From Amoebophrya sp. A120 (taxonomy: Eukaryota > Protista > Dinoflagellata): DNA of 64,000 nucleotides. Below are positions 140 through 64,000 of the stretch, in pieces. The stretch is taken from assembly GCA_905178155.1 (NCBI GenBank), contig CAJINV010000020.1, forward strand, positions 372,001 through 436,000, read 5' to 3'. Position numbers and translations under genes: made by a program. The notes below the pieces were generated by a model, which had not been told where the DNA came from, searched no databases, and saw only the letters and a program-made list of their open reading frames with translations. How positions within the stretch are numbered: position 1 is the first letter of the stretch; each line of letters opens with the position of its first letter.

Positions 140-1809
140 ATGACGACGGCGCTGGTATCCAGCATGATTTCGGACGAGATTTCTTTCGCCATCGCGGCGG
201 GAATCGGGGTCTGCACGCTCGCCTATCTTCACATGCGGATGACCGGGGGGATGAAAAATCAGGACAAGAAGAATCATGTCGATGCGGCGCAAGAACCTGT
301 ATTGCTGCAGGACGAGGAGCGGCGGGCGGAGCAGCATGCGAATCTTCCTTCTGCGAGGAAAACTACCACGACGAACAAGAACCCTGAAAGAAGATCTTCG
401 TGGTTCAGTGACAATGTCATGGAGCAAAGAAATTCATTTAGTAAGGGCGATGCAAGTAGTTCTTGCAGCAATGCCGATGCTCGGGGCTGCACTGAGACCA
501 AATCTCGCCTCAGTGCCTTTTTCTCATTTTCCGGAGAAAGTGCTTCTACCACATCACACGTTTCGACGGCGAGCGAAAAGACACCAACGACTTCCACGAG
601 TGCGGCGACGAGCAAGGAATCAGTGGGAGGTGGAACAACTACAGCATCCGAGCAGGATCCTCCACTGGATATTAAACCACGGTGGACCAGTTTTTTCTCC
701 GCAGCACCCGCTTCCGGTTGTACTTCTAGTTCTATGAAGATCGCAACCTCCTCCCGACGTCCGGAAGAACTACAACACAATGACGTCGATTGCGGCGCCA
801 GCACGTTTTCGGAGCAAACCGAAGACGACGAGGATTCGGACGAAAGTGTAGCTTCCAGCACGCTCCTCTACTCCACAGGCGGGAATAAAGCCAGCCATTT
901 ACTCTTACCCGATCTCGGGTTTCGGCTCGAAGTCGGCGAACTATCAACTGCAAATATGTCTGGGTCTGGGAGATTGCGAGATTTGTCATGCTAGTCTGGC
1001 ATGACTCTGGGATTTGTATTGCGTGGCAACCAAGAGCTCCTCTAGCCTGTCATGCAAACACGCAATTTCTCATGCGGAATACGCAACAAAGAAGCATGAA
1101 AAAACTTGTGATGCATGGCGGCGCATTACAGTGTCCTTATTATTCAGTGACCTGCATCACACTTTCCAGACCCAGACATTTTTGCATTTGATACGAACAC
1201 CAAATGTACCACGGTAGGATGCAGTTCACGGTCCGCCTGCTCGAGTGGCGCGACAAGAGCCCGAACGAGCAAGTCACTCTCGCAAAAGCCACCCGTTCCT
1301 ATTCCCAGTTCAAAAAGCTGCACAAAACGACCAACAGCAAGCAGCACACGCCGTTTCTGCGCCGCCTGCTGTTCTCGTCCCACGTCAGCAAGGTGCAGCA
1401 GCGGACGGAGTGCCTGCAAAAGTTCTGCGCAAGGTTGCGGGTGTCAGACCGGAATCTGAAGCTGCTGGCGGCGTTCTTGGCTTTGCGGAGTGGAAGTGAG
1501 GAAGAGACGCGGCTCCTCGAAGCGTTCGCGAAGCAAGCGGGTGCGGAAGAATTTTTCTGCTTTGCTGTTCATCTTTCAGGATGTCTTTATTGTCTTGCTC
1601 TTGCGGAAGTTCTGGGTTGTAGTCTTTGTCCTGTCCACGTGGCCTGGACTATTGCTGCACCTCCCCTGCGCATTTTGCTTCTGAAAGTGTACTCCTTTGC
1701 TGTCGTCCACTGCCGCATCATGAAGAAAGCAAGAATGTCCTCGGCGTCACACATACTTACGTGCTTACTTGCTAGTGCATCTGTGTTCGTTGCTCTAGCT
1801 CGCGGCTAG
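140..1809 (+). CDS. N-terminal TM anchor, Ser-rich region and PX(-like) domain protein, split by introner 942-1193; 3' end uncertain
   Basis: Removing element plus one TSD joins ORF 140 to ORF 1204: LGFRLEVGEH-QMYHGRMQFTVRL...ATRSYSQFKKLH...PFLRRLLF...QQRTECLQKFC, a PX-like RxYSxF..LH / R...L..F pattern. Confidence 0.6.
942..1193. mobile_element. Introner/MITE family A (subtype A3), 252 bp
   Basis: TIR tatcaactgcaaatatgtctgggtctgg / ccagacccagacatttttgcatttgata; TSD CGAAC (937-941, 1194-1198). Confidence 0.95.
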
Positions 1810-2092
1810 TCGTACAAAAATTGTCGTGGCATTGGTGTACGTGGCGTATTTTTTACATGGACAGCACTTCTACAAGAGGAAGTAGAAACTCTTCGGCAGG
1901 CACGACACCGTGAGGGGAGTGCGACATTCTGCATTGAGCAAGAGGTGAAAATAGATGGATTGACAGAGCAGACACTTTCAGAAGTGGTGTAGTACGTGAT
2001 GCAACGAGTGCAGTGGCGGGGGTTTGCAATGTCAGTAGGATCGTGGTTATTTCCAATCCGCGCTATTTCCTACAACAACTCCAGGTTTTCTC

Positions 2093-2765
2093 ATGTCATT
2101 TATCCCAATCAACATAGGTTCGGCTTCTACCTCTTGCACTCCCTCGGAAGCTGCAGCAGCAGCAGCAGCAAAACACCGCACCATGCCCGAGGAAGTAGCT
2201 CCCGGCGTCGCGAATGGGTGCGGCTGCGAGGTGGTGGTCCAGGCGACTGCCATCGATGACGACATCGCCAAACACTACAAGAAGGGCGGCTGGTTCGGGG
2301 CGGTGGCGGGCGCGTTCGGGGACAAAAAGACGATGTACTGCCATCACATAACAAGGAGCGGTATAGTTTTCTATGAAGATTTCTTTGTTTTTTCTTCCTC
2401 ACCATTGATGCAGTCTCTCTTGTGGTGCAAAATTTGAATTTGACTTTGGGCGGATCATCGTCTAGAAATCCAAAAATCCACTTGTCATGACCGTCTGGCA
2501 CGATGTTGAACATAAATTCATCCAAGGTGGTTTTGCAGTGAAAGAAGCCAAGGCCCAGGGCCTCTGCTTTTCCACCGAGACGGAAGTCTGGGAGTTTTTG
2601 GGCAAAAAGTGCGGGGGCCGGTTCACGCTGAGGGACTGGGGCACCAAGACCATGGGGTGCGGTGGTCTCGGGGAGAAGGATCACGACGAGACCTGTAACA
2701 CGGAAACCTGTCTTTTTCTCGCAAACAACTTGAAGTGCCCAGTGCCGAGGTGGGCAATCAAATGA
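2093..2765 (+). CDS. Small hypothetical protein, two exons; splice junction unresolved
   Basis: Coding-like ORFs 2093-2437 and 2487-2765 separated by an AT-rich segment. Confidence 0.35.
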
Positions 2766-5643: not shown

Positions 5644-7424
5644 ATGTGGAGGGCGATGACGGATACAACTAGCGGCATAGCAAACCGGTCGTGGAGACCG
5701 CCCCCAACTTCCGGAAAGAAAATTAGCCGCGACCGACTTGGACCAAGGCGAGGTGCCCGCACCTGTGGTCCTCGGGTTACAGGTCTGCTTTCAACATCCC
5801 TGCTGGCGCAGATACCGATCTTATTCTACAAGGTTGCAGTCGTGCTCTGTGCCGCACGAACCTCGCTTGCAGGAGGAGACACGGATTGGCAAGAGGGGCT
5901 GCATGACACAGGAGGACCAGGAGTAGCAACGCTGCCACCAGGTGACATGAAGATACCACCGGTAAGCAGAGCTGCATCGAGTCCAAATGGACAAGAACAC
6001 CCAGGGTATTTGTTCTCATCGGCTGGAGCTGGAGCTGGTGCAGCTCCCGTGCTGCATGCACACGACGAGGACCTCCAAAATGGTCGTCCTATCGACCCGG
6101 GTGCAGGTGCGGGTTCGGAAAATGAAATGTTCGAGGACGGAGAGCAGCTTTTGGATGCCGTGCGTGAAGAGACCGCGGCACAGGCTCTCGCGGACTGGGA
6201 GCACGGCACCTCGTTCCTGGAAAAGGGCCCGTGCTGTGACCCCGTGGAAATGGATGATAGCGGTATAATGATCTTGCAATTTTCACTGTTGACACTGTTC
6301 TTTCGATGTTCTTTTTTGTATAAATGAAGTTTGAAAGTTGCATATTGTTCTATGAAGGCTGAAGTTGTATAGTGAAAGAATGTATCACACGATAAATATC
6401 GAACAGACGGTGTCCGGAGATACAAGCCCGCGCCGTACGAGAAGCCGATGCAGCGAGGCGGGACGCTGGGCGCCAACCGCGGCCGGGGGGCGGACTCCGA
6501 CACACCCGAAGTGAAAGTGTACAAAGACAGCAAAGGAAGAGCGGGGGCGGTGGCTACCAAAATGAAGAACGTGTTCCACTCCACCGCGGGCATGATGGGG
6601 ACCATCAGCGTATTGACAGGAAAAATCCCCTCCCCATATTGAAACGGTATGTCTCCGGAAATTTGTGTTGCTGATTTGAGGTCACAAATCACATTTGTCT
6701 TGCAAGAAGACAAGGGCAGAAGGTTCCGCCATATTATGGAGGCGATTTGTCATGCCGTTGGGCCTAAAAGGGGGCCGCTTGCCATGCTGGACAACTAGAC
6801 CCATACGCCCCCAGCTAGCCCGGGGATCTGGCCGCAGTGCCTTTCTGCAACACAAATCTGATTTGTGTATCCAAATCCAGCATCAGAAGTTTCGTTTTGC
6901 CGTCCCAGGAGCTGTTGTTGCTGTCTTTCGGTAGAAATCACATCGTCCAAATAATCCTACTAGAGTTTACCGGGTATGTGGTAACAGCGAGCATAAGGAC
7001 GTTGGATTTTTGACCGCTTCACAGTACAAGACCGGCACTTTTTGTGTCGGCCCGCCGAAGTTCCGCGTGCGGGTTTAGCAGTCTTCTTTCTCGCGAAAAA
7101 GGTGAGTCTCCTGACCCTTCCGGTCGTCACCACTCCGCCCGCGTTCGTGCTCGCACGGCGCCACGATGACGATGACGATGGTTTAAGTTTTTTAGGTATA
7201 GTCTAAACAGGGACACCCAGCCCTTAGCCATCCAAAATCAGAAGTTTCGTTTTGATATGGGGAGGGGGGATTTTTCCTTTTGATACAGCGACGGCCTATC
7301 AAACTGCACAAAACTGCGTCATCAATGTGACCCTGATCTAGCAAACTTGCACACGACCCGCAAAGAACGGAAAGGAGGAGTTTGCATCTTTGCCGACGGC
7401 AAGAATATGAATAGTTTTAGTTGA
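5644..7424 (+). CDS. Hypothetical secreted or membrane protein; multi-exon, includes composite introner 6611-7285
   Basis: Hydrophobic stretch LLAQIPILFYKVAVVLCAA; TSFLEK motif; element removal gives MMGTIS-DGLSNCTKLRHQCD...NSFS*. Confidence 0.5.
6611..7285. mobile_element. Introner family B carrying a nested 337-bp insertion
   Basis: TIR tattgacaggaaaaatcccctccccatat / atatggggaggggggatttttccttttgata; TSD CAGCG (6606-6610, 7286-7290); homologous to 33275-33603. Confidence 0.9.
6900..7236. mobile_element. Nested insertion with 18-bp TSD (SINE-, LINE-3'- or retrocopy-like)
   Basis: atcagaagtttcgttttg duplicated at 6882-6899 and 7237-7254; insert ends in ...ccatccaaa; absent from the sister B copies. 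Confidence 0.75.
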
Positions 7425-8448
7425 GTCGCAATCTTCTGCATCAGTAAAACATTTATTTGACATAGGGCAAGATGGACCTGTTGTGTCTTTGTTTGTCCTC
7501 AAGGACCAGTAGTTCGGCCTATGGGCGGGCAGTTTTCAGTTTGATAACGCAAACGAAAAACAATCGATAATAGGAAAGCGAGAAACAACGCACGACAACT
7601 ATGTACTCATACTTGTTTTTTGGCCGTCGGTTTATTTCTACTGCGATTTTTGGAAAATTGAAATTCAAATGAAATTAGAGTCTAATTTCCGGTTAACTTC
7701 GAAATTATCTAATTTCCGGTTTCCGGTTACAGACGTATTGAAAAAAGTGACTCTGCAAATGCGATGAATTCTTTATATGGTGGCGCATGCGAGCAACGGA
7801 CAGATTATCCATCGAAGAAAGAAAAACCGCAACAAACAGCATACAAGGAGAATGTGCAGAGGAAATATGAAAGTGAAAATATTGACCGGCTCCCATGAAC
7901 TAATACAACGACCTCTTATCGAGAACCACATATCTTCTACCCCTAGAATTTGTTAAGCGTCGTGATGTCATGCCACTTTGCAGGAGATGAAGGTCCGTCT
8001 GGTGCCACGAGAACTTCGCAGTTACTTGTTGCAAAAGCTTTCAAGAACTGATGAGAATTATGAGTCTAACGGCCACGGAGATCCTCATAGGTCGCTGTTT
8101 ATGGGTTCCGATTTTTTCACTTTGATTTGTTGGGCGGCGGAGTAATGGGAAAACTCGGTGCAGCTAAGGACTTTGTGACTTTATCAAAGTGAAGCGTGTC
8201 GTGCGCGTTTCGATTTCCTTCCTTCCCGCTCAGAACACTACGATGTGACGGTTCTCATGCCATTGTGCATGATCCAGAATGTGTATGTGACGTGGATGGT
8301 GCTCTCCCTTGGGTCGTGTGACGGGAAAGTAAGTACGAATTGGGGCTCCAGCTTTGCGTGAGAGAGAGAAACGAAACTTATCGGTGGTTCTGGGTCTACT
8401 TTCACCGGGGGGAGGGAACAAATTTGCAATCCATACAGTGGGAAGAAA

Positions 8449-11211
8449 GTGTACGACTCGGATTCGGACAATCGGGAAGACGATGCAGATTTCCGGACGG
8501 GAAACGTCGGGTCTGGAGCGCATCAGACCGCCAATGTGGCACGCATGCCCCAACAAACTCAGGTGGAGGCGTTGCCATCCGGGAAAAAGGTGAAACAGGA
8601 TTCCACGGCGGAAACATCGGAAACGGAAGAAGGAAGTACTTTTTTTACAACCGCGTGGTCTTCTATTCATCTTGCTGGCACATTCATTAAGCATGACTAT
8701 TTCCGAAGAAGTAGTAGAAATGACTATCATTCAAAAAGCTTTTTGCGTAACTTGAAATAGAAGCGAGCACACTATTTCAGACTTGAAGTTGAATAGTGAG
8801 AAAGAGAAATCAAATCGAACGTACGAGGAGCGTTGTATTCCTTAGACGCAAGAAGAGAAGCTCCTACAAATTCTTGCACACAACAGGTACAGACGACGAG
8901 GATGAGTCCTGGGATGATGACGAGGAATATATTCACGGGTAAAAAAGTCACCCCCCCCCGCCCATATTAAATTTCCACACGATAATTAATCCGATTTGAT
9001 TCTCGCTGTGGTTTTTCTATCTTCTTACTTGAGTCACCATCGCCAGCAGAATCACACCGGTAGTAGCCTGCTTGACGAGAAAGGATACATAGTGAGTAAC
9101 TACTTCTTGTTCGAAAAGTAGTTCTTTTGGTCTTAGCGGGGGCGTGGCTTTCAACCCAGGATACTAGATTACGACAAACGCAGTAGAAGAGGCGGAGGCG
9201 ACGATAGTTTTGATGTCAGCGAGGGCTACAGCGACGATGGCTACAGTGGAAGCGGCGCGAGTAAAAGTGACGACGGCGACGGCTACAGCGACGACGATGG
9301 TTTATCAAATGTAAAAATGTCTGGGTCTGGAAGAATGCAACTTGTCATGCTAAATCTGAAGCATACAAAAAGCTGTGTTGCATGATTACCAAAGTCGTCC
9401 AGTTTTGGCCAAGTCGGGAGGGAGTTTCTCATGCAGGATAGGCATGAGAGAGAGTGCACAGAATCTGTCATGTTAGGTCCTGCATTACAGACCTCATGGG
9501 TCATGGAAAAGCTGCATGACAAATCGCGCACTCTTCCAGACCCAGACATTTTTGCATTTGATATGGTTACACCGATGACGACAGTGGCGCCGCCAGCAAC
9601 AGCGACAGCGCGACCTCCGAAACGCCGCCCAGTAAGACGAGCAGCAAGACAAGCAAGAGGAAGAAGGCTAGTGCCAGCGCCAGTGCGACGTCCTTCCTGC
9701 AAGAACATCAACTGCAGAAGAAACGAATCGCCAGGAAGAAACAAAAGCAGAAGAAAAAAGCAGCAGCTGCGAAGAAGTTTTACAAGAAGTCCGGCACGCT
9801 AAAATCGGGGAAAATGCAGTCTTTCTTACAACTGCACGAGGAAAGCGAGGACAGTGGTGTACTAGGTCCTGCGCTGCTGGGAGGACAAGCAGGACAACAA
9901 GAACCCGAGATGCTGGACGACCCGCGGCCGACTGCCTTTATTTCCTCCTCAAGAGCAGCTGCACCGTCGAGTTGGAGAAGCAAAAAGAGAAATAAGCTGG
10001 TCGCAGATCCTGGTCTCGAAGACTCGACGTCGTCCGCCTTGGCAGCAGGAAGTAGAACAGCCGTCCAACGAGGGCCTTCAGCGGGCGCCGGGGGAAATAT
10101 GAAAACTCCCAAGGAGGTCATCATGTTGTTGTTGTCCGGAAGTATTGAAACGACTGGAAGAACTACCAGCGGAGATGAAAGTACCAACACAGCCGGGACA
10201 AGTGTGTTGCAGCAGGGCGAGAAGATTCATTTCCCTTCAACATCATTCTTGCCAACATCTTCGTCTCCCACCACCGGTAAGGGTGATGACATGGGTGCAT
10301 CTACTACTGCTGCATCACTAGAACAAGCGGGAGGAGCTGCCACTGAGGAAACAAGAAGCCAGGATGGAGTAGAAGCCGCTTCCTCCCGCACTACAGTGTT
10401 TTTACAACCCGTCGACAGCCGGATTGGGGAAAATGCGGGGAATAGCACGACATTAACGATCTTTCCCTCTTCATCGCTAGAAATTGTACCCGGTAGTAGA
10501 ACAAGCACAACCCCGTCCACATTTCTCGAAGAACAATCCGCCTCTTCTCTTGACTCTGGGTCAAAATCCCAGGAGGATTGGCGAGGAGCAAAAGAAGCCT
10601 CGTCCACTTTAACACCAACATCTTTGGGAGAAGTTACAGGCGAAAGAAGGCTGCACGAGACTGATCGAAAAGATGAAAATGTGGAAGAGCAACAGGGATC
10701 TGCTCCAAATCGATCACTAGAACAAGCGATAGAAACCGAGAACGATGAGCAGCAGCCTGACCTGGAGCCCCCTCTAGTAAAAACGGGGTCGTTGACAACT
10801 GCAGCAGCCCCCTCCTCAAGTTCTTCTTTTCTCCAAGAGCAACAAACTGCACGACTTGAGGGCGGCACGGGGGGCAGCAGAGGAAGCATGGGAGCAGATG
10901 ATGACAATCTAAATCCTCTGCTGAACTACGACGAAGCAACACCTGGTCAAGCGGAGTCAACGGATCATGTCGAGCAGCGAGCAGCTGTCATCACGGGTGA
11001 AGACGTCCTTCCACCTTCTAGCGGAACAAGGCCAAAAACTGCTCTGCGGGGCGCTGGAAGGGTGAGATGGCCGCAAGTAGCAGCAGTGCAAGGCGGAACA
11101 ACGACAGCTGCGGTGGGCACAGCAGAAGGAGGTAGCTCGGCTGCTGCCGGAATGACTGAAACGCCAGTTGTGCGGAAAACCAATTTGCGGGGCGGGATGA
11201 AAAACTTGTAG
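8449..11211 (+). CDS. Large acidic, Ser/Thr-rich low-complexity protein with repeated S/T-F-L-Q/E motifs; 5' end unresolved
   Basis: Exons join in frame: SETEEGS|TDDEDESWDDDEEY|YDKRS...DDGY|TDDDS...KMQSFLQ (ORF 9814-11211). Confidence 0.6.
8930..9163. mobile_element. Degenerate introner
   Basis: TIR tattcacgggtaaaaaagtcacccccc vs reverse complement tatcctgggttgaaagccacgccccc; eroded TSD GAATA/CTAGA; removing element plus 5 nt keeps the frame. Confidence 0.7.
9303..9563. mobile_element. Introner family A (A2), 261 bp
   Basis: TIR tatcaaatgtaaaaatgtctgggtctggaaga; TSD TGGTT. Confidence 0.95.
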
Positions 11212-12214: not shown

Positions 12215-15200
12215 ATGTCGGACGACGACAGTGAGGGGGGCGGTGATAACATTTTCGCTGCTGCAGGGGATGTTGACCAAGGAGAAAAACCTGCACCGAA
12301 AGCCGTCCCGCAAGCCCGGGGGAGCATGAGCGCTCTGCTTGCGAAGTTCAACCCGTTAAGCAGCAGCAGTGGTGCAACTAAACCAGGCTCTCGAGGAGGA
12401 GCTGCGACATCAGCTGCAAGTGGAAACAATCATGCAAACAGCAGTTTTTCATCAACATCTGAGCAGCAGACGCAGGCAGCAGCAAGTCAAGAAGATAAAG
12501 AGTCCTCCGCGGGAGCTGCATCGAAAGCTTTTTCCACCTCAACCTCCGCAGCTCCGACCCACCTCCCGGCGAACTTCCAGCAGCAGTTGGAGAATTCCAA
12601 GGTCTGCTTTTGCCACAACACGCTGGAGGCCAACGTGGAGCGCGCGAAGCCCTGGGACGCGCAGACGCCGAGCGTGCTCATTGGCCACTTCTTCTTCACC
12701 TCGGCTTTCGACAGCGGGAACGGGGGGCGCATCATGCGCGTGCCCAAGCCCAAGCCGCTGTCCATGGGGTACGAACCCGTTTCGGAGGACCCGGTGTGTT
12801 ACGACCCCTGGGAATACCACGTGTGGGTCTCGCCCGACTGTGCGAACACGATTCACCAGAGCACCTGTCGGACGTGGTTCTACTTCCGGGTCACCTCGGC
12901 GGAAACAAGCTACGTGAGCGAAAAGCCCGAAGAGGAAGAAAGCGGGGGAGGACCGGCGGGCAGCGCTACTTCGGAGGGGCAGGGGAACGGAAAGAAACTG
13001 CCGCGTAATCAAGATGTAGTTTTGATGTTCATCATGGTCCGCGTGGAAGCTGTTTTTGCATCTCATGTAAAGAGTAGCGGAGGTGACAGAGCACCACGAG
13101 CTAGGACTCGAGAAACAGAAAATGCGTACGTTTTTTCGACAAACAAACCCAGGTATCCACCCCATGCACTTGGTAGTGCGCGGGATGCAGAATCAGTCGA
13201 GGCTCTACAAGGAAAACTACTCGGTCTGGATGCGGTTTGTGGACGGGCCGTGGCACCGTGTGCCAAACATGACGGGTCCGAATCCGCAGGCGGCAACTCC
13301 CCGAGCATCTGGTGTGGACCACAAACTCGGCCAGAAAATTGGGCGCATCGGAACGGCGAGCGGCGGGTCGCGGGCGTATACTTAGGTTTTTCTGGAAGGT
13401 CTCTACTAACTTCGCTGTAGTTACTCCGAACAGCCCCGAAGCTGGAGTCTTGGCTGATGCGCGTTAGCGATTCTTTTGAATCCGAGTTCGAGTCTTCTTG
13501 CATTGGCAGTCGTATTGTTTCAGCTTTTTGGTAAATTATCTTCGTAAAGCACAAATCTCATTTTTCAGTTCCACCGCCAGCGGGGAGGCGAAGACCGAGG
13601 CGCTGATGCGGCAGACCATGCAGCACCAGATCGCGCAGCAGCAGCAGGTGGAAGCGGTGTGGCACGACCCGCACCAGGGCGGGACCGGGTTGAGTTTGCA
13701 CTTCGTCGCGCCGATACCGCTGGACAGCACACCCGTGGAGTTCGCGTTCTGCGTGCCCTTTTCCCACACGGACATGGAAACTTACCTAGCGAGAATCGAG
13801 CGCCAGTTTTTAGCGTACGACAAAGCTCTCTTTGACAGAAATGCTGCGGAGGCGTGCGGCATCACGAGTGGAGGCGCAGGAGCAGCCGGAAGCAAGGAAC
13901 AAGCAGGTGGATCTTCTTCGTTCAGTAATGCTGCAGCGGCAGCCGACCAGCAGCGCCCGAAGACAACTTCCTCGGTTAGTTTTTGATTGAAGCTTTCGTT
14001 TGTTTCATCCTGTTTCTGATGAACCACTGCGGAGCCTTGTTTCTTTGTAGATCTGATGAATTTGACAGAAGTAGTGTCAATTACAATTTGAAATCAACTA
14101 TCCCGCGCAGCAACGAATCATAGAAGGCACCAAAATAAAGAACCGTTTTATATCAGGTTCCAGTAGGAAGCGCGACCGGCAACATCAAGCAAGACAACAG
14201 CCAGTCCGAAGAAAGCCAGCGGGACCGATCGTTTTCCTCCGACGGGGTCCCGGCGAGCATCCTTTCCTCTAGCTCGAAATACGCAAAAACGGGAGGGAAC
14301 TTCCGTCTCAGCGCTGCAAGCAACCCCATGAACTGGGTGCCGACGAGGCTCTTGCCCAGTTCCGCAAGCAATTCAGCCTCGAGTTCGGAAGCAGGTGCTG
14401 GGAAAAATGGTGACAGCGCGGAGAACAGTACTACTTCATCGTCTTCATCGAGGCCGTCGAGTTCTTCAAGCGTGCAACAATTATCCTCGAGCAACGTCTC
14501 CTCGTCCTCAGCCGCCGTATATGGCAGTGCCGCTGGTGGCAACGGCTTCGCGAATGGTGACACGAATCAGAATCCTTTGATAACCGGTAACAGCCTGTCC
14601 AGCAGCTCCTCAACCTCGCGGTCGTCTTCGAGAAACCGGAGCGGGTCTGCTACTTTTTCGGCCTTTTCCGTCCCCCCAGTTCCCTTCAATTTCCGGACGA
14701 TCTCAGGGCTGAACAACTTCGAATCCATCACGAAACTCGATCATCTCGACAGCGAGGAAAGGCTGTTTTTCTTCCCGTATGCATTACAAATATGTCTGGG
14801 TCTGGAAGAATGCAAGACCTGTCATGCACATTTTGCATGACCCATGATGTCTGTGATGCATGCCCTAGCATCACAGACTTTTTGAGGGCTTTCTGATGCG
14901 TAAAGTGCATGACAAAGGCCCTCTCCGCGTAGCACAGACTCGACTGCTCTTACTGGTCATGCAATACAAATTTTTTTGGAATCCAAATGCAGCATCACAA
15001 GTTGCCATCTTCCAGACCCAGACATGTTTGCATTTGTTGATATCCCGACGAAACAACACCACCGCGGCATGCCGATGCCGCCGAAGGGGCAGAACGTGTT
15101 TCTGCGGGTGGAGAAATTTTGCAAGAGCTTGCAGGGGAGAGACCTGTATTTGATGACGATCACGGACAAGCGGCTGTTTCAATTCGACCCGCACGAGGCA

Positions 15201-24584: not shown

Positions 24585-24679
24585 TTTCTCGCGGACTTGT
24601 GTTCTTGACTAAGCGCGGATGTGTGCTCATTTTTCCCGAGTGTATTCTAGTGGTATTGTTCGTTGACCTTCAGCCTCGG

Positions 24680-26003: not shown

Positions 26004-26219
26004 TTTGGATGGTGTTATGTCTATGTGCTCGTGTTTGTAGTCAATGCGCGACACCGGAAGGGCCGACGCGTGGTCTTTCCCCCACTGTAACGACTGTCAG
26101 CGCCATTGTGTCTTCTTCTAGCTCATGACGGCCGTGTGCGCTGGTATGTATCCGAGTGCTAGTGATGCAGCATGCGACGTTTGTCAGCGAGACATTGAGA
26201 CACAACAAGACAAAATAGA

Positions 26220-52296: not shown

Positions 52297-55200
52297 ATGG
52301 ACTACTACACGACAAGAACTGCGGATCAGCATGATCTCTGGGCACCACCAGAAGACGCACCGTATTGGCGCGTCTCCCGAGACTGCACCGAATGCAGTCG
52401 CACTTTGGCATGCTACGAGGCTTCGCCAAGTTTCAGCAGCGACGGGGCCGACAACATCGCGCGAAGTCACCCCTTGCACGAAAGGGACCGCGGAAGAATG
52501 CACGGGGACAGCTTTCGCCCGATTAATTTTGACCAATACAAGAAGCTCACTGTGCAGACGCTGCTGTGCGAATTCAAACCTCCTGCAGGAGCAAAAGCAT
52601 CTTCCGGGTCGTCCTCGTCCTCCTCCTCTTCTTTCTCCGGAGTTGTAGATCCTCCTGCGAAACAAGAAGCCGGTCGAAGCGGGATAAAGAAAACGACTCC
52701 CAGCAGCACCATAAAACCAGCGACAGCAGGCCCGGAGGAGCCCACGCGAGGACCACCGGAGGAAGAGAGACCAAGTAGACGGAACAAGCTGATCATTCCG
52801 GAAAAACGCGATTTCGTTGAAGTTGGCACGTCTTACTACGACACGCTCGCGCAGTGCTGCTACCCGGAGCAGATGGAGCGTGACGGGAGTAGCAATTGCT
52901 ACTATTTGGAGTCCTGCTACCAGCTCAAGTACAGCAATTGCGAGAAGTGGCTCGGTTTACCCACAGCCACCGGCATCAGCATCGACGCCATTCCGCAAAA
53001 CGTGGAGATGCTGCCCCGAACCTCGAACAATTTCACGAAAATCGCGAAGCCGGTAGCCGGAAGAGCGATGGACGTGGCGGAGCGGGCGCGCGTGGACTTT
53101 CTGCGAAAGGACCACTTGCGGGACAAGGTCTTGCAGTTCTGGGACAGCAAGGGGTGGCTGGTCCCGTGGGACATCTGCTACAACCAGGCCGCTCAGAATA
53201 TGGCGTTCTCAATCGTTACATTCTCAACTGTTACATCGATTTGTAATGCAAGAACGGCAAAACTAAAAGGGGTGACCTTGCGCGTATTGCATGACAGATT
53301 CGGCGCAGATTCTCAGCCTGTGTGGCTCTTCGAGAATTTGTCATGCGAAGCAGCTTGATCGTGTCAATTCTGATTGTAATTTTGCATGACAAATCACGTA
53401 ACAGTTGTGAATGTAACATTTGAGAACGCCATACAGAAAAATCGCGTTTGGGAGCAGGATTTTACGGATCCTTGCTTTCTCGACTGGCTTTACCGCCAGG
53501 AGAACCCAACTCTGGCGGACTTTTTGCCACACAAGAAGAAGAATTCGTGCGCGGATGAAAATAGTACCACGACCGGAGGTAATGGTAACAGTAACTCCAG
53601 CTCCAGGGTAACGCGGGCGGATAGCACGACAGCGAGCACGACCGCGGAAGGTGGGAGCTCCACGAGGCAAAGTGTGGACAATTTGATAGAGGATGTCGAG
53701 GCGGTGGCCGCTGGACGAGGAGGGCCACAGCAGCCAGAAACAGAATGGGGTACAGAAAGATTTTTGTGTTTGTGATTTACTGTGTGTCAGGGCGATCATG
53801 CAGTAGTTTCTCGCGGCCCCTGATTTGTTTCCTCATTGCGCGTTCACGATTTAGTTTTGCAGCCCTGGTTCTTGTGCAGGACTTCTGATCATGATGAACT
53901 ACTGCCTTCTACATTTGCGAAGCCACGGAACAACGAAACATAGGTGTAGAAGAAGGCGACGATCACGATACGCAGGCGAAGATGAACATCACCACCTCCG
54001 GCGCCAAAGTAGAAGAACCTCGAGATCTTCATGAAGGCCCCGCCTCGCTGCTGCACGATGTGCCGAAAGAAGTCGCGGAGCAGAAGGTAGCAGAGTGGCG
54101 AGAAAAGGACGAAGCGGAGAAAAATAGCACCCCGTTGCCGGACAACCACGTCTACCTCTACGGGCTTTTGCCTGAAAAAATGCACGAGATGCGCAAAGCG
54201 GAGGAGACGGCAACACCTTGCGCCGAGCACGGAGTGCCCAACTGCAAAAGATGCTCCTTCGTTGGGGCCCGCACCTGCGCGACGTCGTCGATCAATGAGC
54301 CCACCAAGTACCTGCTGGAACTGCTTTCCTACAACAACATGCTGCACCTGCTGAAGCGGCAAACGGTGGAAACCGAGGCTCTGTCCTCGATTTTACGGAG
54401 GCACAAAGTGCTCATGGTCGACACGCTGCTACGCAATTGCGAAAAAAGACCAGTGTCGAGGACGCAGTCGCAACAAGGTCTGCGTGATAATGTGATGTGA
54501 AGACTTGTTTTTGCCTGCTTAAGACATCTGTTGAGCAGACATGTAAGTATTGATTTGATTTCGGGCTGCAGCTCTTCTCTTTATCCGACAAATAAGCGTA
54601 TTTGTGTTCTTGCCCATACATAGTCAACTGCTCCTGCAAAACGAAAACTCGGCGACTGCCACCTTTGCTGGACTGGTTTATTTTTCAACCACTTGCATAA
54701 GCCAAGTTGGATTTGGAAGGTGCGGATGGTGAAATTCTGCGGGATTTGATGTGGAACCATTTTCAGAAGTTTGGCCTGCTCTCCCTGCCGCGCTTGATCA
54801 TTTTCGAGGCGAACGCCACCAACTGGGCCGAGGCGCAGATGATTATCCTGAGTAAAAACGTACCCACACCATAGTCAAGATGGGGAATCGGCTAGACAAG
54901 TCCACAAGTTTTGGCTGTTTTGCATGACAAATTTGCATTCGTAGTGTAGTGCGGTTTGAGCTAGCTCAGCAGCATCACAGATCTAGCATACCATGCTGAT
55001 TGGAGCATGACAAATTGCAAAACACGGCTAGAAAATGCTTCTCATGGGGCTCCGCATGAGAAACATTTTCAGCATGCAGATTTGCATTACAACTCTGGTG
55101 TGGGTACGTTTTTACTCAGGATAATGATGTTGCAGTCCCTGGAGTCCTGGTTTGGGTACAAAACCCAAGACTTCTTCTACCAGGGAATGCGCAAATGCCA

Positions 55201-55927
55201 CCCGGCTAGTATCCTGAGTAAAAACGTACCCACACCAGAGTTGTCATGCGACTTTGCCATGACAGGAACATTTGTGATGCGCAACCCCATGACAGGCATT
55301 TTCAATCGTGTTTGGGAATTTGTAATGCTGTAAACAGGAGCAGCAGATCGATTTGTGATGCGGCTTTCCTTGCTAACTTGCACTACCTTACGGACTGAAA
55401 CTTGTCATGCGTGACTCACAAAACTCCTAGGCTTGTGTTGCAAAATCCCCATCCTGACTCTGGTGTGGGTACGTTTTTACTCAGGATAGCTAGCGCGGGC
55501 CAGGTCTCGGACATGAAGGTGGAGCTACCGGAGGAGGTGGAGAGGGTGAAGCAGAAACTGTGGGAGGAGGTCATCTATCACATGGAAAAAATGTCTGGGT
55601 CTGGAAGAATGCAACTTGTGATGCTGCATTTGGATTCCAAAAGAATTTGTGTTGCGTGAGTACCTAAGGAAAGGCAATTTTTGCTACGCTGAGAAGGCAT
55701 TTGTCATGCGGAATACGCATCAAGAAGCCCTCAAAAAATCTGTATTGCTAGGGGATGCATCACAGACATCATGGCTCATGCAAGACGTGCGTGACAAGTG
55801 TCAGAATCTTCCAGACCCAGACATTCTTACAGTTGATATCATCCAGGTGTTTCACACGCTGGAGGAGCAAGAGCAGCGGCAGATGAATCGAGCGAAGGAA
55901 CAGGAAAAAAGGAAAAATTTTTTATGA
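52297..55927 (+). CDS. FkbM-like SAM-dependent methyltransferase, expanded; 5 introners and a GT-AG intron
   Basis: DFVEVGTSYYDTL, GISIDAIP, VDTL-KLDLEGADGEIL, LIIFEAN. Confidence 0.6.
53199..53433. mobile_element. Introner family H, 235 bp
   Basis: Long TIR tatggcgttctcaatcgttacattctcaactgttac; TSD CAGAA. Confidence 0.93.
54430..54699. mobile_element. Degenerate introner
   Basis: tacgcaattgcgaaaaaagaccagt vs reverse complement tatgcaagtggttgaaaaataaaccagt; TSD eroded (GCTGC/AGCCA); removal of element plus 5 nt keeps the frame. Confidence 0.65.
54844..55123. mobile_element. Introner family G, 280 bp
   Basis: Family G TIR; TSD ATGAT. Confidence 0.95.
55210..55488. mobile_element. Introner family G, 279 bp, opposite orientation to 54844
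   Basis: Perfect TIR of about 32 bp; TSD GCTAG. Confidence 0.95.
55576..55838. mobile_element. Introner family A (A1, reverse orientation)
   Basis: Family A TIR; TSD TCATC. Confidence 0.95.
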
Positions 55928-56098: not shown

Positions 56099-56307
56099 TA
56101 TCCAAGAAAAAAACTGTGTAAGTGTAACTTTCTTTGAGGAACAGCATCACAAATTTGCTCTGCATGACAGAGAAAATCTGTCGTGCGTGGCTTGTAAGGG
56201 AAAATACACATGAAAAGAGGGCCGCATGGTTGTCCGGCATGACAGGTGTATCTCTGCTGCATGTTCTGCAACACAAATTTACACTTACACAGTTTTTTTC
56301 TTGCATA
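56099..56307. mobile_element. Family C element in probable 3'UTR or intergenic DNA
   Basis: TIR tatccaagaaaaaaactgtgtaagtgtaa; TSD AACAA. Confidence 0.93.
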
Positions 56308-58387: not shown

Positions 58388-61030
58388 ATGTCTTGTTCGT
58401 CGCTCCTCCCTCGTTTTTTCCCCACGACAGCATCTTCAGTAGCCCTGCTTATCTCGTGGGTGCTCCTCCTCGTCCACACTGCGACTCCATCCGAGGCCAA
58501 AAGTTCAAGCCAGGCGGAACCGGTTTCGATCGCGCCCGCCGCCGGGGATCCGGGCGGCTTCATGGACGAAGACGGCAATCACCAGGGGTTTCTGGACGAC
58601 GAGACTGGCGAAGACGATGACGATCTCGACGGTAGCTTCTCGTTGGACGAAATGGAGCTCGCGGCGGACGAGCTGCTGGCGCAGTCCGTTCGGTCCGGCG
58701 CGATCGACGTGTCTGCCAGTGCGAAATTGCTTGACAACGGCGTGCAGCAGGTCGCCAGCAGTGAGGAGTATCTCCAACAATTTTCCCTAGCGGGCAGTGA
58801 TACCATCGGAGGATCAACACAAGCTGCACGTGTACAACAACTCGGGCAAAGCCAGGCCGGGCTGACGGTGAAGACCGCGCCGGGCGGGGAGCTCGTGGAC
58901 CAGGGGGTGACCGCGGCTTCCAGTATGGAGATGAAGAACGGGGTATTGGTGTACAAGGAGGATGAGAGTAGTACTCCGGAAGGAGCAGGAGATAGAGCGG
59001 CAGCAGACCTTGTTGAGCGGGAGCAGACGAAATTGGAGCAACTGACGCAGGAATTATCCGAAACGCAGAAAAGGCACAATCAGTTCAAGGACCAGCTGCG
59101 GGAGACCGCGAAAAAGGAGCAGACCAAGAAGATGAACAAACAAAAAAACAAAAAGACGCTTTCCGGGTTTCTGACCAAGTGGAAGAATTTCGCCACCGAC
59201 TGGTTTCAGCCCGGGTACTGCCGCGAGGCCAAGCGTTCCACGAACTACCACACTGCGGAGAACTGCTATTCGCCCTCGCGCTGCTCTATCCAAGAAAAAC
59301 GCTATGTGAGTGTAAATCTGTCATGTAGAAAATGCAAATTGTCATGCTGGATATGCGTCATAGAAGGCCACTTTCATACCTGTTTTCACGTGCTAGTCGC
59401 GCATGACAGGTTTTCCTTGTAATGTAAAAACGAATATAGTGATGCTGCTTTTCCGTACAAAGTTAATACACATGCTCACAGTTTTTTTCTTGGATATGCT
59501 CGGACCCCCGGATCCGGCAAGTCTGCCTCACGCAGGGCTTCGTGCAGATATCAGATGCAAAAATTTCTGGGTCTAGAACAAAGCAACTTGTCATGCTAAA
59601 TGTGAATCAGGCAAAAAACTGTGTTGCATGATTGGCAAAAGTTGTGCACTCTTGATGTAAGTAATCGAGAGGCAGTTTCTCATGCAGAATAGGCATTAGA
59701 ATTAGAAAGGTCTCGTCGCAGAATCTGTCATGCTATGTCCTACATGCCAGACCTCATGGGCCATGGAAAACCTGCATGACAAATCTGGCGATCTTCCAGA
59801 CCCAGGCACTTTTGCAATCCATAGCAGATGACCGACAACTACGTCCTGTTCAAGTCCGGGAACGGGTGCCGGGCGGCGCCCGTCACCGAGGTGGATGTAT
59901 CCCCGAGAAAAACGCGGGCAGGGCATATTTGTAAATGCAAAAACAAATACACAGAAAAATTTGTCATGGGTGGTCCCATAGCGTGCTGCTTCGGGTATGC
60001 AGTGCAGATTTTTTTTGCGTATTTATTTTTGCAATACAAATATGCCCTGCCAGCTTTTTTCTGTGTGATAGGATGCGAAAACCGGGCGGGTGATCCGGAA
60101 GAACCAGAACGCCTGCGTGCCGCTGCGGCACTACTGCGCCATGCAGTGGGACGGCATTTCCTGCGGGGAACTGGAGGGCTGCGAGTGGGTCGTCACGGGG
60201 CGAGTATCAAATGTAAAAATGTCTGGGTTTGGAAGAATGCAACTTGTCATGCTAAATCTGAAGCATGCAAAAATCTGTGTTGCATGATTACCAAAAGTCG
60301 TCCAGTTTTGACCAAGTCGCGAGGGAGTTTCTCATGCAGGCTAGGCATGAGAGAGATCGCACAGAATCTGTCATGCTAGGTCCTGCATTCCAGACCAGAC
60401 CTCATGGGTCATGGAAAAGCTGCGTGACAAGTCGCGCATTCTTCCAGACCCAGACATTTTTACATTTGATAGCGAGGGGAGGAAAGCATAAGCAACCAGG
60501 CAGGTGGGTCCTCGTCGACGGAGGTGGGAGCAGCCGCTGTGGAGGATGTTGATCCTAGTGTTGCTCCTGTTGAGAAAAAAAACGAAAACCCACCCCGTCT
60601 TTCCTGGCGAAATTACGAGACAACAATCCCGGGCGTTGCCTACCTGCTGCCGGACCTGCCCTGCGACCCGCTGCCCACCGCTCGTCGCGCGCGGCGGGAG
60701 CCGTGTTTCTTAAAGGAGCCGAAGGCGGTCGACAAAAAGAGTTGGTGGTACTGGTTCCTCACCAGCCGGGTGACGAAACTCAGCACGTCCGCACAGTGGC
60801 GCTACGAGAGGCTGACGCGCCGCGATTTGTCCTACAATGTCCCGCGGAACGACTGCGGCAGGTGCAAGGAGGTCTCGACCCACTGCTACGAGAATTCCCA
60901 GTGTTGCAGCAATAAGTGTGCCGTCGGTCCGGGATTGTATAGCTTCACGCACAAAAAAAGATGCCAGCCGGTGGCGGGGGAGCAAGGATATCCCTCTGTG
61001 AGTGAAGGGGGCATTACCGTGTCGGTGTAA
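58388..61030 (+). CDS. Secreted protein: signal peptide, acidic/coiled-coil region, Cys-rich C-terminus; 4 introners
   Basis: VALLISWVLLLVHTA; joins RCS-DPR, VQ-MTD, VD-AKT, GR-GEE; C-terminal Cx6Cx5CCx3Cx14C. Confidence 0.7.
59287..59496. mobile_element. Introner family C, 210 bp
   Basis: tatccaagaaaaa TIR; TSD TGCTC. Confidence 0.93.
59549..59823. mobile_element. Introner family A (A2), 275 bp
   Basis: Family A TIR; TSD GCAGA. Confidence 0.93.
59898..60070. mobile_element. Introner family D, 173 bp
   Basis: tatccccgagaaaaa / ttttttctgtgtgata; TSD GGATG. Confidence 0.92.
60205..60471. mobile_element. Introner family A (A2), 267 bp
   Basis: Perfect TIR of about 36 bp; TSD GCGAG. Confidence 0.95.
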
Positions 61031-61320: not shown

Positions 61321-61400
61321 GAACAAACAAGCTCGCCCAATGTACTAGGACAAGTTTCATGAACAAACAAGCCCGCCCAATGTACTAGTACAAGTTTCAT
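61321..61400. repeat. Tandem duplication, 2 x 40 bp
   Basis: gaacaaacaagc(t/c)cgcccaatgtactag(g/t)acaagtttcat twice. Confidence 0.85.
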
Positions 61401-62131
61401 CATGAACAATGTAAGTAGGTCTCTCCTGTGCATCTTCTTTGTCTGCAAAAGGAAAAGGAAAACAAAAAAATGTGCTGAAGATCAATAATTAAACGAAGCT
61501 CTCAGAGTCAGAAGGCAAATGCCGCTTCAGTTTAGGAACATTGTCTGGATTTCGTTTTCGCTGCTATGAAGGAGTACTCGACAGCTGCTTTCGTGTTCTT
61601 ATCTCATCCTTCGCGCGCGCGGCCCGAGATACACTCCATCGCGCCCCTTGCTACTGCAGCATGAAGCACCAGATAGTATATTCTTGAGTCGTTCTTGCCC
61701 GCTATCGCCAAGAGGAGAGCCAAATCGCCCTGCACCAGAGATAGAATTTGGATTATCGAGAGAGCCTTGAAAGAAAAAAACAATTCGGTCGTTTGGGTGA
61801 CTCACTGGTCGAAGATGGAACCACATTAAAGTCGTGATCGCGCCGGGGTAAGTAGTCTCGACCTCCACGTCGTGGCACGAGAGAGGCGCTGCGCATAAAC
61901 GAACAGGCTCCTCTAAGTTGTACTTCACTCGTAGTTTGTTCAATGCTGGTGGTACGTAGACGTATGCTCGTTGTATCTTAAACCGGCGCGAGATGAAAGA
62001 CTAGAGCTCGTGTTCGAGAGGAAGAAGTCTGGTGGACCACTTTCGCAAGAAACTGTTCGTTCTCCAGCTACCTTGTGGGGAAATATACAGCACTTTAAGA
62101 GAACGTCCAGGTAAAAACAATCATCTCCAAA

Positions 62132-64000
62132 ATGGCGATGACCACGAAGCAACACAGCCGAAATGCGGCACTGAGGCAAGAGGTAACGCTATCTGCGGAG
62201 GAGGAAAAAAGGGCCAAGGAACTGTACTTTGTTTTCATGTTGATCGCAGTCCGTCATGTGCTTGATGTTTGTGTTTACCCTTCGAACGTAATGAATACGA
62301 GCACTGGGATATTGTTATCCCCCCATTGTTCCAATGGATTTGGTATTATCCGAAATGAAATACTCACTAGATTCGGCGTGTACGACTACGATAAATCAGA
62401 CAGCGTATCACCTGCAAGTGAGCGTCAGGGAATCGGAAGAACTTTTCCTTTAAAAATTTGTCCTCTTGCTACTTGTTTTACTATGCATGGGCATGGGAAA
62501 TGAGTTCGTGCCATGGACTCATTTTCTTTGTTTAAGCTAAGCTTTGTGTGCGTATTCTGTTCTTCCCATGGAACGGTGACGCCTATTTGCATTGCATACA
62601 CTATCTCACCGGATGAGATGCGCGATCTTCTCACCGAGTTGGGCTTCAACATCGCAGACGAGTCCATCACACTCGTAATATCACAATACGGTACATCTTT
62701 TGTTGGACATTTCAGCTGAGGACTTTTTTGCTTTTCAAGAACTCGGAACAAATACCAGTATTGCAGCGCAATTTCACCAGCCAAGTGTGGACATCAGAGT
62801 AGAAACTCAGTTTTCTAGAACGATGTTGATGCTAGTGCTGTTTTGTCTATAGCGATGTCAAAGATCTTGATCTTCACTGACCGACAACAGCTGCGGATCC
62901 TAACAAAGTGACTTTTGCGGAGTTCAAGGGAATATACGTGGAATTCCTCGCCCAAATGCCGTCCGCGCTGAGGAAAAAGAACATGGCCGGAGCCTGCCGA
63001 CCATGCGTAAAAATACAATTAATTGGCTACCACGCTTTTTGTTTGCGAACGTTCTTGTATGGATCAACGCCAGGCTTTTACCGGTCGTGAAACTAGCGAT
63101 TTTTTTTTGCCATGATTCGGAGGGTTTGATGGCATCTCATCTGTTTTTGAAAAATCTATCAGCATCAAGACGTATACTTCACGGAAGCGAGTTACCGATC
63201 CGCGTTATCAAATTGATGCAAATGTGTCAATATCTACTTGGCTAGGGTAAAAAAAAAACCTCACTTAGTGGCTGCAGAATCAAAAACAGGCCGTGAAGCA
63301 GCTGCACCCATGCTAAGGCGCTGCATTGTGACATCATTGCATATTTATGTAATTTATTAGTATCTTCTGCATGTAGTTAGATGCTTCCCTAAAAAGAGCA
63401 GAAGATCTTCGAAGTAGTAGTGGTGCAACTTGTTCGGTGGAGAGCACGAGTATCTTGCATTTTTCCCGAGGCATCAAGTCAGAAACGACACTTGCAGAAC
63501 AAGTCCATAACTCTTCAAGGCGTACGACTTCGATGCAAGCGGCACGCTGGAACGATCGGAACTGAGTGCGTTGCTGTTCGATCTCGGTATTGATTGACGT
63601 TTATCCCATCAGTTTTGATGCAGCATATCGTAATGTTTTTGTTTATGTTTTTGAATACTATCCAGAGAACCGAAGCGTGACTACCTAAATCGCAAAAGGT
63701 GTACACATCCACTTTTTCCGAATTATATACCAGGTATGCCAGACGTTTACGGAGACAATTACAGCACGCTAATGGACGAGGCTTTCTCTGTGGTGGACTG
63801 GGATCACTCAGAATCGCTGGACTTCCAATATAACCCGCTCAGGTGTTACAATCTCAAACGTTACAATAGAACATAGAAATCTGTGATGCAAGAGTGCATG
63901 ATCTAGCCAACTCTCATAGGATTGTGCATGACAAGTTCCGGAGCCCCAAACATCACTACAATCTGGCGAAATTTGTATTGCAAAAGGTGGAACGCTGTGC
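62132..64000 (+). CDS. Multi-EF-hand calcium-binding protein, runs off the window end
   Basis: FGVYDYDKSD(S)ISPDEMRDLL, FKAYDFDASGTLERSELSALL, FSVVDWDHSESLDF. Confidence 0.75.
62406..62598. mobile_element. Degenerate introner inside an EF-hand loop
   Basis: tatcacctgcaagtgagcgtca vs reverse complement tatgcaatgcaaataggcgtca; eroded TSD CAGCG/CACTA. Confidence 0.7.
63829..64000. mobile_element. Probable introner, truncated by the window end
   Basis: Begins with TAT directly after coding SLDFQ; contains gtgatgc and gcatgacaa motifs. Confidence 0.55.

What the first reader, a model, noticed from the sequence alone, without database searches (positions are those of the whole stretch)
942..62598. 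Multi-family TIR transposons acting as non-canonical introns
Seen: 32 elements in at least 8 unrelated TIR families share TAT(rarely TAC)...ATA termini; 26 have a perfect 5-bp TSD. Thirty lie in CDS, and removing element plus one TSD restores the frame each time, including conserved motifs (CCP5, Cwf18 WDIKRD, TMEM151). Most TSDs (CGAAC, ATCAA, CATCA, TCATC, ACTCA, CAAAA) offer no GT-AG boundary in any frame-restoring register. Established: similar IR/DR-bounded non-canonical introners were reported in Amoebophrya (Farhat et al. 2021), with the excision mechanism unresolved as far as I know. Inference: a splicing route keyed to element ends or hairpin structure makes insertions neutral.
Basis: partly seen in the sequence, partly recalled or inferred. 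Interest (0 to 1): 0.9.

Follow-up and report, generated by a model that had tools for sequence, protein, structure and literature searches.

The report
Transposon introns cut by fixed ruler
In the marine parasite Amoebophrya A120, small hairpin transposons already described as odd introns are missing from RNA contigs together with one copy of their 5-base target duplication, and all five informative junctions fit a cut one base before and four bases after the element, a likely fixed rule that would let them land anywhere in a gene without harm.

Summary
Observation confirmed. The window is Amoebophrya sp. A120. It holds 34 complete TA..ATA inverted-repeat elements; 26 have a perfect 5-bp TSD and 32 lie in coding sequence. 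They match the introner elements Farhat et al. 2021 described in this strain, so the system is known.

RNA contigs (one sample) lack element plus 5 nt at 13 sites: 8 as direct joints, 5 by exact length. DNA contigs keep them.

Not found in the papers searched: five copies with decayed TSDs all fit one register, a cut 1 nt before the terminal TAT and 4 nt after ATA (1+4 = TSD length); two fix it uniquely. Nearby in-frame GT or AG alternatives go unused at six sites. In 153 oriented copies from another assembly, no G or AG enrichment appears. Farhat left the boundary 'variable/unknown'.

The geometry resembles Euglena's fixed-spacer code. The catalyst is untested: altered spliceosome about 0.5 (element donors NTAT match host GTAY), dedicated non-spliceosomal route about 0.35. 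'Unrelated families' is overstated: all share end motifs, most a heptamer. The scan noted a similar element in Prorocentrum (e1-7693921, unchecked).

The parts
942..1193 (+). Element, family 1 (12 copies, both orientations), TSD CGAAC, in CDS
   Evidence: outside both RNA stretches
6611..7285 (+). Element, family 2, 675 bp, TSD CAGCG, in CDS
   Evidence: outside both RNA stretches
7297..7546 (+). Decayed element, flanks CGGCC/ACGCA, in CDS
   Evidence: no RNA
8930..9163 (+). Decayed element, flanks GAATA/CTAGA (AT..AG at -1/+4), in CDS
   Evidence: no RNA
9303..9563 (+). Element, family 1, TSD TGGTT, in CDS
   Evidence: no RNA
14778..15042 (+). Element, family 1 (reverse orientation), TSD TCCCG, in CCP5/AGBL5 gene
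   Evidence: joint skips 270 in 4 of 4 runs; model equals P0001
15977..16193 (+). Element, family 3, TSD ATCAA, in CCP5 just after the SYTLECNYN motif
   Evidence: joint skips 222 in 4 of 4 runs; AT5.2 protein P0002 is colinear across it
19587..19847 (+). Element, family 1, flanks CTCCG/CCCTG; informative, intron 19586-19851 (k 4-6)
   Evidence: joint 19585-19852 in X1 only, 1 of 4 runs
23610..24584 (.). 975-bp element, TSD TTTCT, intergenic; two ORFs without Pfam hit
   Evidence: no end-to-end joint
29762..30071 (+). Element, family 2, TAC start, TSD TCAAG, in RING/TMEM151-like gene
   Evidence: joint skips 315 in 4 of 4 runs
32614..32794 (+). Decayed element, TAG start, flanks CCATG/CCCGG; informative, intron 32613-32798 (k 4-5)
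   Evidence: joint 32612-32799 in 4 of 4 runs; 3' end matches an element end in L072; 5' end set after seeing RNA
33275..33603 (+). Element, family 2, TSD CAGGT (GT-AG also possible at k=3)
   Evidence: joint skips 334 in 4 of 4 runs
37358..37609 (+). Element, family 1, TSD GCAGC, in CDS
   Evidence: no RNA
37649..37805 (+). Element, family 4, TSD CAAAA, in CDS
   Evidence: no RNA
39767..40028 (+). Element, family 1, TSD CAAGG (GT-AG at k=4)
   Evidence: no RNA
44627..44810 (+). Element, flanks TACCA/AGCCA, in 618-aa coiled-coil gene
   Evidence: RNA rows cut
44985..45251 (+). Element, family 1, TSD CGATC
   Evidence: RNA rows cut
45304..45565 (+). Element, family 1, TSD GAGGT (GT-AG possible at k=3)
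   Evidence: RNA rows cut
45624..45829 (+). Element, TSD GTTCT
   Evidence: 95% copy in L024; RNA rows cut
45866..46128 (+). Element, family 1, TSD AAGCA
   Evidence: RNA rows cut
47395..47680 (+). Element, family 5, TSD ACTCA
   Evidence: X1 piece starts at 47681 in mid-record, one-sided
50764..51042 (+). Element, family 5, TSD CATCA, splits the Cwf18 WDIKRD motif
   Evidence: X1 piece one-sided
53199..53433 (+). Element, TSD CAGAA, in FkbM gene
   Evidence: X1 record 4 gap of 315 nt equals removal of element+5
54430..54699 (+). Decayed element, TAC start, flanks GCTGC/AGCCA; informative, intron 54429-54703 (k=4)
   Evidence: X1 piece ends at 54428; P0121 allows k 3-4; homologues L/V/I in 27 of 27, then K in 21 of 27
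54844..55123 (+). Element, family 5, TSD ATGAT
   Evidence: RNA rows cut
55210..55488 (+). Element, family 5, TSD GCTAG
   Evidence: RNA rows cut
55576..55838 (+). Element, family 1, TSD TCATC
   Evidence: RNA rows cut
56099..56307 (.). Element, family 3, TSD AACAA, between genes
59287..59496 (+). Element, family 3, TSD TGCTC
   Evidence: X1 record 6 gap of 245 nt equals removal of four elements+5 each
59549..59823 (+). Element, family 1, TSD GCAGA
   Evidence: X1 record 6
59898..60070 (+). Element, family 4, TSD GGATG; in-frame GT..ATAG alternative not used
60205..60471 (+). Element, family 1, TSD GCGAG; in-frame GT..ATAG alternative not used
62406..62598 (+). Decayed element, flanks CAGCG/CACTA, in EF-hand gene; intron 62405-62602, k=4 uniquely
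   Evidence: joint 62404-62603 with zero ambiguity, X1
63206..63509 (+). Strongly decayed element, flanks CGCGT/ACTCT; intron 63205-63513 (k 4-6); a GT at k=3 is not used
   Evidence: joint 63204-63514, X1; ends defined after seeing RNA; weak stem
63829..64000 (+). Element cut by the window end
   Evidence: 82% match to an element in L028

Best explanation
These are the known A120 introner elements, short transposons with TAT..ATA inverted ends and a 5-bp target duplication that RNA contigs lack together with one duplication copy, likely cut out at fixed distances from the element ends (1 nt before TAT, 4 nt after ATA) and likely by the host's altered spliceosome. Steps: (1) inferred: an integrase-like transposase from elsewhere inserts them in either orientation, with no target preference, duplicating 5 bp. 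(2) Predicted: the inverted ends fold into a 20-30 bp stem that brings the exons together. (3) Shown at five junctions, generalised by inference: the intron is N-TAT...ATA-NNNN; because 1+4 equals the TSD length, the exon is restored exactly whatever the flanking bases. (4) Inferred: the element's TA(T) stands in for positions +2 to +4 of the host donor GTA(T/C); base +1 and the acceptor AG are not read, and the 3' cut is set by distance from the stem. Odds by step: RNA-level removal 0.95; -1/+4 as the general rule 0.8; spliceosome as catalyst 0.5.
For: RNA joints at 8 elements and exact gap lengths at 5 more. The same contigs splice GT-AG introns, so they are RNA-derived. Register classes (k = left-TSD bases kept): 62406 {4}, 54430 {4}, 32614 {4,5}, 19587 {4-6}, 63206 {4-6}. 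By hand, a random register fits all five with probability about 1/970, or about 0.006 over six candidate registers. In-frame GT-AG alternatives go unused at 19587, 32614, 62406, 63206, 59898 and 60205. Family-1 copies of both orientations are removed. Host donors are GTA in 26 of 28 and GTAY in 21 of 28 (377 of 3476 GT sites in the window are GTAY); element donors are NTAT in 29 of 32. Elements fold with median z -6.0 and paired ends; canonical introns have z 0.0. All nine top A120 boundary classes in Farhat Table S4 have T at +2. [quoted passage not shown] 298 copies in L001-L132: 227 perfect 5-bp TSD, 0 with 4, 6 or 7 bp, and three 8-bp (5+3) duplications among 19 poorly matching copies.
Against: Only five informative junctions; two are unique, one of these one-sided, and the ends of 63206 and the 5' end of 32614 were set after seeing RNA. 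RNA evidence is contigs of one sample (X1-X4), and three informative joints rest on X1 alone. Against the spliceosome: no enrichment of G at +1 (31% vs 22-37% at neighbouring positions) or AG at -2/-1 (15 of 153 vs 11-20 elsewhere); all first/last base pairings occur, although splicing normally needs a terminal non-Watson-Crick pair; the stem would hide the donor and branch region. 63206 has no end stem in its best fold (2.8 kcal/mol higher when forced). The Table S4 pattern may reflect aligner bias. No transposase was found.
Confidence: 0.5

Rival explanations
1. Same -1/+4 rule, but a dedicated non-spliceosomal machine (structure-specific nuclease plus ligase) measures from the TAT/ATA stem, converging on the euglenid nonconventional-intron pathway and releasing circles or linear RNA.
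For: Indifference to the +1, -2 and -1 bases, and adjacent GT/AG left unused; strong terminal stems; the Euglena code N3-CDG..CH'G-N5-6 uses fixed spacers around paired triplets and is thought separate from the spliceosome.
Against: Element donor +2 to +4 equals the host donor consensus; apparent U1 loss accompanies these introns; Fritillaria shows a spliceosome can adapt. No candidate enzyme was identified.
Confidence: 0.35
2. The cut slides within the target duplication (direct-repeat guided or variable register); -1/+4 is only common.
For: At perfect TSDs the register cannot be seen; Farhat describes sites as variable, with IRs 1-5 nt from splice sites; three 8-bp duplications exist.
Against: All five informative junctions fit k=4; copies with 0-2 matching TSD bases are still removed exactly; no 4-, 6- or 7-bp duplication among 298 copies.
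Confidence: 0.1
3. Reverse-transcriptase template switching across hairpins flanked by direct repeats makes false introns; the genes are broken or retain the inserts.
For: Direct repeats plus strong structure are the known signature (PMC4176328 passages); all RNA evidence here is cDNA.
Against: Joints with 0-2 nt of repeat (62406, 32614, 19587, 63206) fall in the same register; retention truncates 27 of 32 CDS cases, including CCP5, Cwf18 and the EF-hand gene; the AT5.2 orthologue is colinear with the spliced form; FkbM motif residues fit k 3-4.
Confidence: 0.03
4. The elements are removed from DNA, like ciliate TA-bounded internal eliminated sequences (recalled analogy).
For: TA termini and precise loss.
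Against: DNA-like run X5 has contigs at single-copy depth (about 43) that run into the elements and through 59287, and no precise-excision joint among the rows shown; 392 joint rows were hidden.
Confidence: 0.02

Closest known systems
Amoebophrya A120 introner elements / non-canonical introns (Farhat et al. 2021, PMC7789003)
   Same: Same strain; IR starting TAT + 7 nt + A-run, DR of 3-5 nt, about 240 nt, 29,850 copies in 1,954 families, RNA-supported, no GT-AG.
   Different: Nothing in the elements. The paper calls the splice position relative to the hairpin variable/unknown; here decayed copies point to a fixed -1/+4 register with GT and AG unused.
A120 introner families in Gozashti et al. 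2025 (PMC12130899)
   Same: Classed as TIR DNA; fam38 is listed as 'Ginger; 5-bp TSD, TA/TA termini'.
   Different: In the 22 of 58 A120 rows seen, boundaries are mixed and labelled by co-option class; no fixed register is stated. I did not match window copies to their family numbers.
Euglenid nonconventional introns (PMC12501133; review PMC11282704)
   Same: MITE-like origin, paired terminal triplets at fixed spacers from the cuts, longer spacer on the 3' side, no GT-AG, unknown machinery.
   Different: CAG/CTG with spacers 3 and 5-6 plus a purine at the exon start, against TAT/ATA with spacers 1 and 4 and no purine rule; different supergroup; circles are shown there and untested here.
Fritillaria borealis non-canonical introns (PMC13326754)
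   Same: TIR/TSD-derived introns that escape GT-AG.
   Different: Mostly AG-AC/AG-AT ends, duplicated U2AF, U1 retained; here the terminal dinucleotides are free.
IS3EU/GingerRoot DNA transposons (PMC10045372)
   Same: TA..TA termini, TIRs.
   Different: TSD usually 6 bp there; 5 bp here (0 of 298 with 6).

Membership tests
Amoebophrya A120 introner elements | Located in the A120 genome | tested here: met
   Exon 15048-15971 is 100% identical to A120 protein P0001; P0121 likewise
Amoebophrya A120 introner elements | IR begins TAT, seven variable bases, then an A-run | tested here: met
   TAT at 65 of 68 ends; A at positions 11-15 in 51-60 of 68
Amoebophrya A120 introner elements | Direct repeat of 3-5 nt at the boundaries | tested here: met
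   26 of 34 perfect 5-bp; 227 of 298 in L001-L132
Amoebophrya A120 introner elements | Repeated in families | tested here: met
   5 multi-copy groups in the window, up to 92% identical; up to 97% to copies in another assembly
Amoebophrya A120 introner elements | Removed from RNA with non-GT-AG ends | tested here: met
   13 of 34 shown, 3 one-sided, 18 not seen or not examined
Non-autonomous TIR transposon (MITE) | TIRs, constant TSD, no transposase | tested here: met
   two ORFs of the 975-bp copy have no Pfam hit
IS3EU/GingerRoot | TA..TA termini | tested here: met
IS3EU/GingerRoot | TSD usually 6 bp | tested here: not met
   0 of 298 with 6 bp
IS3EU/GingerRoot or Ginger | Integrase-like DDE transposase in an autonomous partner | not testable with these tools
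   No genome held; no long-ORF TIR copy in 384 kb of loci
U2-type spliceosomal intron | GT/GC-AG termini | tested here: not met
   Possible in any register for 3 of 34 and 9 of 153
U2-type spliceosomal intron | Donor +2 to +4 matches the host consensus | tested here: met
   NTAT 29 of 32 vs GTAY 21 of 28
U2-type spliceosomal intron | Lariat with branch adenosine; snRNP dependence | not testable with these tools
   No raw reads of this strain were available
Euglenid nonconventional intron | Paired terminal triplets at fixed spacers from the cuts | tested here: met
   Spacers 1 and 4 at five informative junctions; small sample
Euglenid nonconventional intron | CDG/CH'G motif, spacers 3 and 5-6, purine at exon start | tested here: not met
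   TAT/ATA; first exon base is purine in 21 of 32 only
Euglenid nonconventional intron | Excised as full-length circle | not testable with these tools
   Needs RNase R or long-read RNA data
Self-splicing or other Rfam RNA | Match to a covariance model | tested here: not met
   0 Rfam hits at gathering threshold in 64 kb

The most novel reading that the evidence does not exclude
A120 has a second, non-spliceosomal splicing machine that acts as a ruler on a TAT/ATA RNA stem (1 nt on the 5' side, 4 nt on the 3' side) and so neutralises any transposon whose TSD equals 1+4. Euglena's 3+5 code would be the same solution reached independently for 8-bp-TSD elements: a general 'spacer sum = TSD length' rule.
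Probability: 0.3. Interest if true: 0.88.

Novelty: already known. Interest (0 to 1): 0.5.

Why it matters
About two thirds of A120 introns are non-canonical and their excision is unexplained. A fixed code (N-TAT...ATA-NNNN) turns that open question into direct tests: where to look for a branch point or circle junction, and which bases and spacers to mutate. It would also allow some 30,000 ambiguous intron boundaries to be re-annotated, and explain how tens of thousands of insertions without target preference are tolerated in coding sequence. Either outcome, a spliceosome blind to +1 and AG or a separate machine, bears on the limits of intron recognition.

Tried and rejected
No whole genome is held for the window, and the L loci's records are not searchable, so no autonomous element or snRNA could be sought. 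The run search listed no holder on record as RNA. In one search, 392 joint rows were hidden, so nine elements in that stretch have no RNA reading. No joint removing the intergenic element 23610 was seen. Direction of TSD mismatches in 34 oriented copies gave no usable register signal (L5=G in 6, R5=G in 1 of 11 mismatches at position 5). The stop-codon test over registers excluded only k=1 at one site. Canonical acceptors show no fixed A or ATA at -5 to -7 beyond an A-rich background (16 of 28 and 15 of 28), and canonical intron ends are not degraded TIRs (4.5 of 15 matches vs 4.9 in controls), so a branch point at the terminal A has no support. No target-site preference. No PDB relative of P0121; no Rfam hit. 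The coding model used for orientation included one gene in the wrong frame; it still oriented 31 of 32 window copies correctly in leave-one-gene-out tests. 105 of 298 copies were dropped as unoriented before the counts. Template switching and DNA-level excision were considered and rejected (see rivals).

Full report
Identity. Exon 15048-15971 is 100% identical to an annotated Amoebophrya sp. A120 protein (P0001, CCP5/AGBL5). The model of gene 52297-55927 equals A120 protein P0121. All modelled genes lie on the + strand.

The elements. End-pair scans found 23 TA[TC]..[AG]TA pairs with a perfect 5-bp TSD and TIR >=12/20, against 0,0,0,0,1 in five shuffles. A looser scan and RNA joints bring the list to 34 complete elements of 157-975 bp: 26 with perfect TSDs and 8 decayed. 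32 are in CDS. Bodies form 15 BLAST groups; family 1 has 12 copies in both orientations. All share TAT[CG]-N6-AAAAA ends, and an internal heptamer is about 20-fold denser inside elements (84 in 9,586 bp vs 21 in 54,414 bp). Of 33 folded copies (the 975-bp one skipped), median z is -6.0 with about 23 end-to-end pairs; 28 canonical introns give z 0.0 and about 4 pairs. A GT/GC-AG boundary exists in some TSD register for 3 of 34. Retaining an element truncates the ORF in 27 of 32 cases. Frame restoration alone proves little, since it follows from any TSD insertion.

RNA. Runs X1-X4 (contigs, one sample) splice ordinary GT-AG introns, so they are RNA-derived. They skip element+5 nt at 14778, 15977, 29762, 32614 and 33275 in 4 of 4 runs and at 19587 in 1 of 4. 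X1 skips 62406 and 63206. Its record 6 has a 245-nt gap, which by hand arithmetic equals removal of 59287, 59549, 59898 and 60205 with one TSD each; its record 4 has a 315-nt gap that fits 53199. 47395, 50764 and 54430 are seen from one side. Eight elements lay outside both stretches, nine had their rows cut, and intergenic 23610 showed no joint. DNA-like run X5 runs into and through elements at single-copy depth. Raw reads X8 and X9 did not map usefully.

The register. With k = left-TSD bases kept in the exon, decayed copies give 62406 k=4 (zero ambiguity), 54430 k=4 (piece ends at 54428; annotation allows 3-4; homologues have L/V/I in 27 of 27 and then K in 21 of 27), 32614 k=4-5, and 19587 and 63206 k=4-6. 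So the intron is N-TAT...ATA-NNNN. By hand from the classes, a random register would fit all five with probability about 0.006 after allowing six choices. Caveats: n=5, one case is one-sided, three rest on X1 alone, and the ends of 63206 and the 5' end of 32614 were set after seeing RNA (that TA and ATA sit at the expected places there is itself a check). In-frame GT-AG alternatives exist and are unused at six sites, including G|TAT..ATAG at 59898 and 60205 and a GT one base further left at 63206.

Larger sample. A TIR pattern search returned 132 loci (384 kb) from another assembly carrying the same families at up to 97% identity. TSD-blind detection gave 298 copies: 227 perfect 5-bp, 40 at 4/5, 12 at 3/5, 19 at 2/5 or less, and none with a 4-, 6- or 7-bp TSD. 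Three of the 19 show an 8-bp duplication, one of them in non-coding-like context; this fits frame-preserving selection on a fixed cut, or an enzyme quirk. 193 of 298 were oriented by a coding model. In their 153 perfect copies G at intron +1 (31%) and AG at -2/-1 (15) are not enriched, and GT/GC-AG is possible in 9. This sample detects only large enrichment.

Mechanism. Shown: removal from RNA with one TSD; the same register at five sites; orientation independence; neighbouring GT and AG unused. Inferred: cuts are measured from the element ends, and since 1+4 equals the TSD the exon is restored at any target. For the spliceosome: host donors are GTA in 26 of 28 and GTAY in 21 of 28 (10 of the 28 introns RNA-supported, the rest from ORF models), element donors NTAT in 29 of 32, and U1 was not found in A120/A25 but is present in canonical strain Kv. 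Against it: free +1, -2 and -1 bases, no residual selection, and a stem that would hide the signals. I put the altered spliceosome at 0.5 and a dedicated euglenid-like route at 0.35.

Literature, and what I saw. PMC7789003: abstract, sections 10, 11, 12, 16, 32, 36, and supplement passages (Tables S4, S5, S7; legends of Figs S19-S25). Its figures are not held, so the logos of Fig. 3 and Fig. S23 may already hint at the register; the legend calls it variable and unknown. PMC12130899: passages and 22 of 58 A120 rows of supplementary file 8; files 13 and 14 were not searched. PMC12501133: abstract, sections 8 and 12. PMC11282704: passages and section 6. PMC13326754: abstract and section 30. Passages only: PMC10045372, PMC12787238, PMC12005148, PMC12621601, PMC11453091, PMC4176328. 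The preprint of Roy et al. was seen as a listing only. Searches showed no paper stating the -1/+4 rule; subscription journals are not covered. The ciliate IES analogy and the link of Euglena's 3+5 spacers to 8-bp TSDs are recalled or inferred, from no call.

Verdict. Real, correctly described and already known as a system. The new part is a candidate splice code resting on five junctions, which makes the open mechanism testable. Interest 0.5.

Noticed in passing
window 42542-43642 (+): ORF with a Hint module (PF01079, E 5.7e-11); the upstream exons were not resolved.
   Followed up: no
window 24700-26100: GC-rich stretch (65% in the 24001-26000 bin) beside the 975-bp element; no Pfam hit in its 289-aa frame, no match in L loci.
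   Followed up: partly
window 50464-50675: Canonical GT-AG intron of Cwf18 carries three element-type heptamers; possibly an old element turned canonical. No match in L loci.
   Followed up: partly
window 8929-9167: Decayed element reads AT..AG in the -1/+4 register, a possible intermediate toward a canonical intron; no RNA check.
   Followed up: partly
window 50308-51451: A splicing-factor gene (Cwf18-like) itself needs element removal inside its conserved motif.
   Followed up: partly
L030:3329-3608, L063:2085-2443, L002:2123-2341: Elements with 8-bp rather than 5-bp duplications.
   Followed up: partly
window 26220-27701 and 56908-58050: Element-free, intronless EamA transporter and ICMT genes, each within one RNA contig.
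   Followed up: no
window 28295-30241: Gene combining a weak TMEM151-like region with a C3HC4 RING finger.
   Followed up: no
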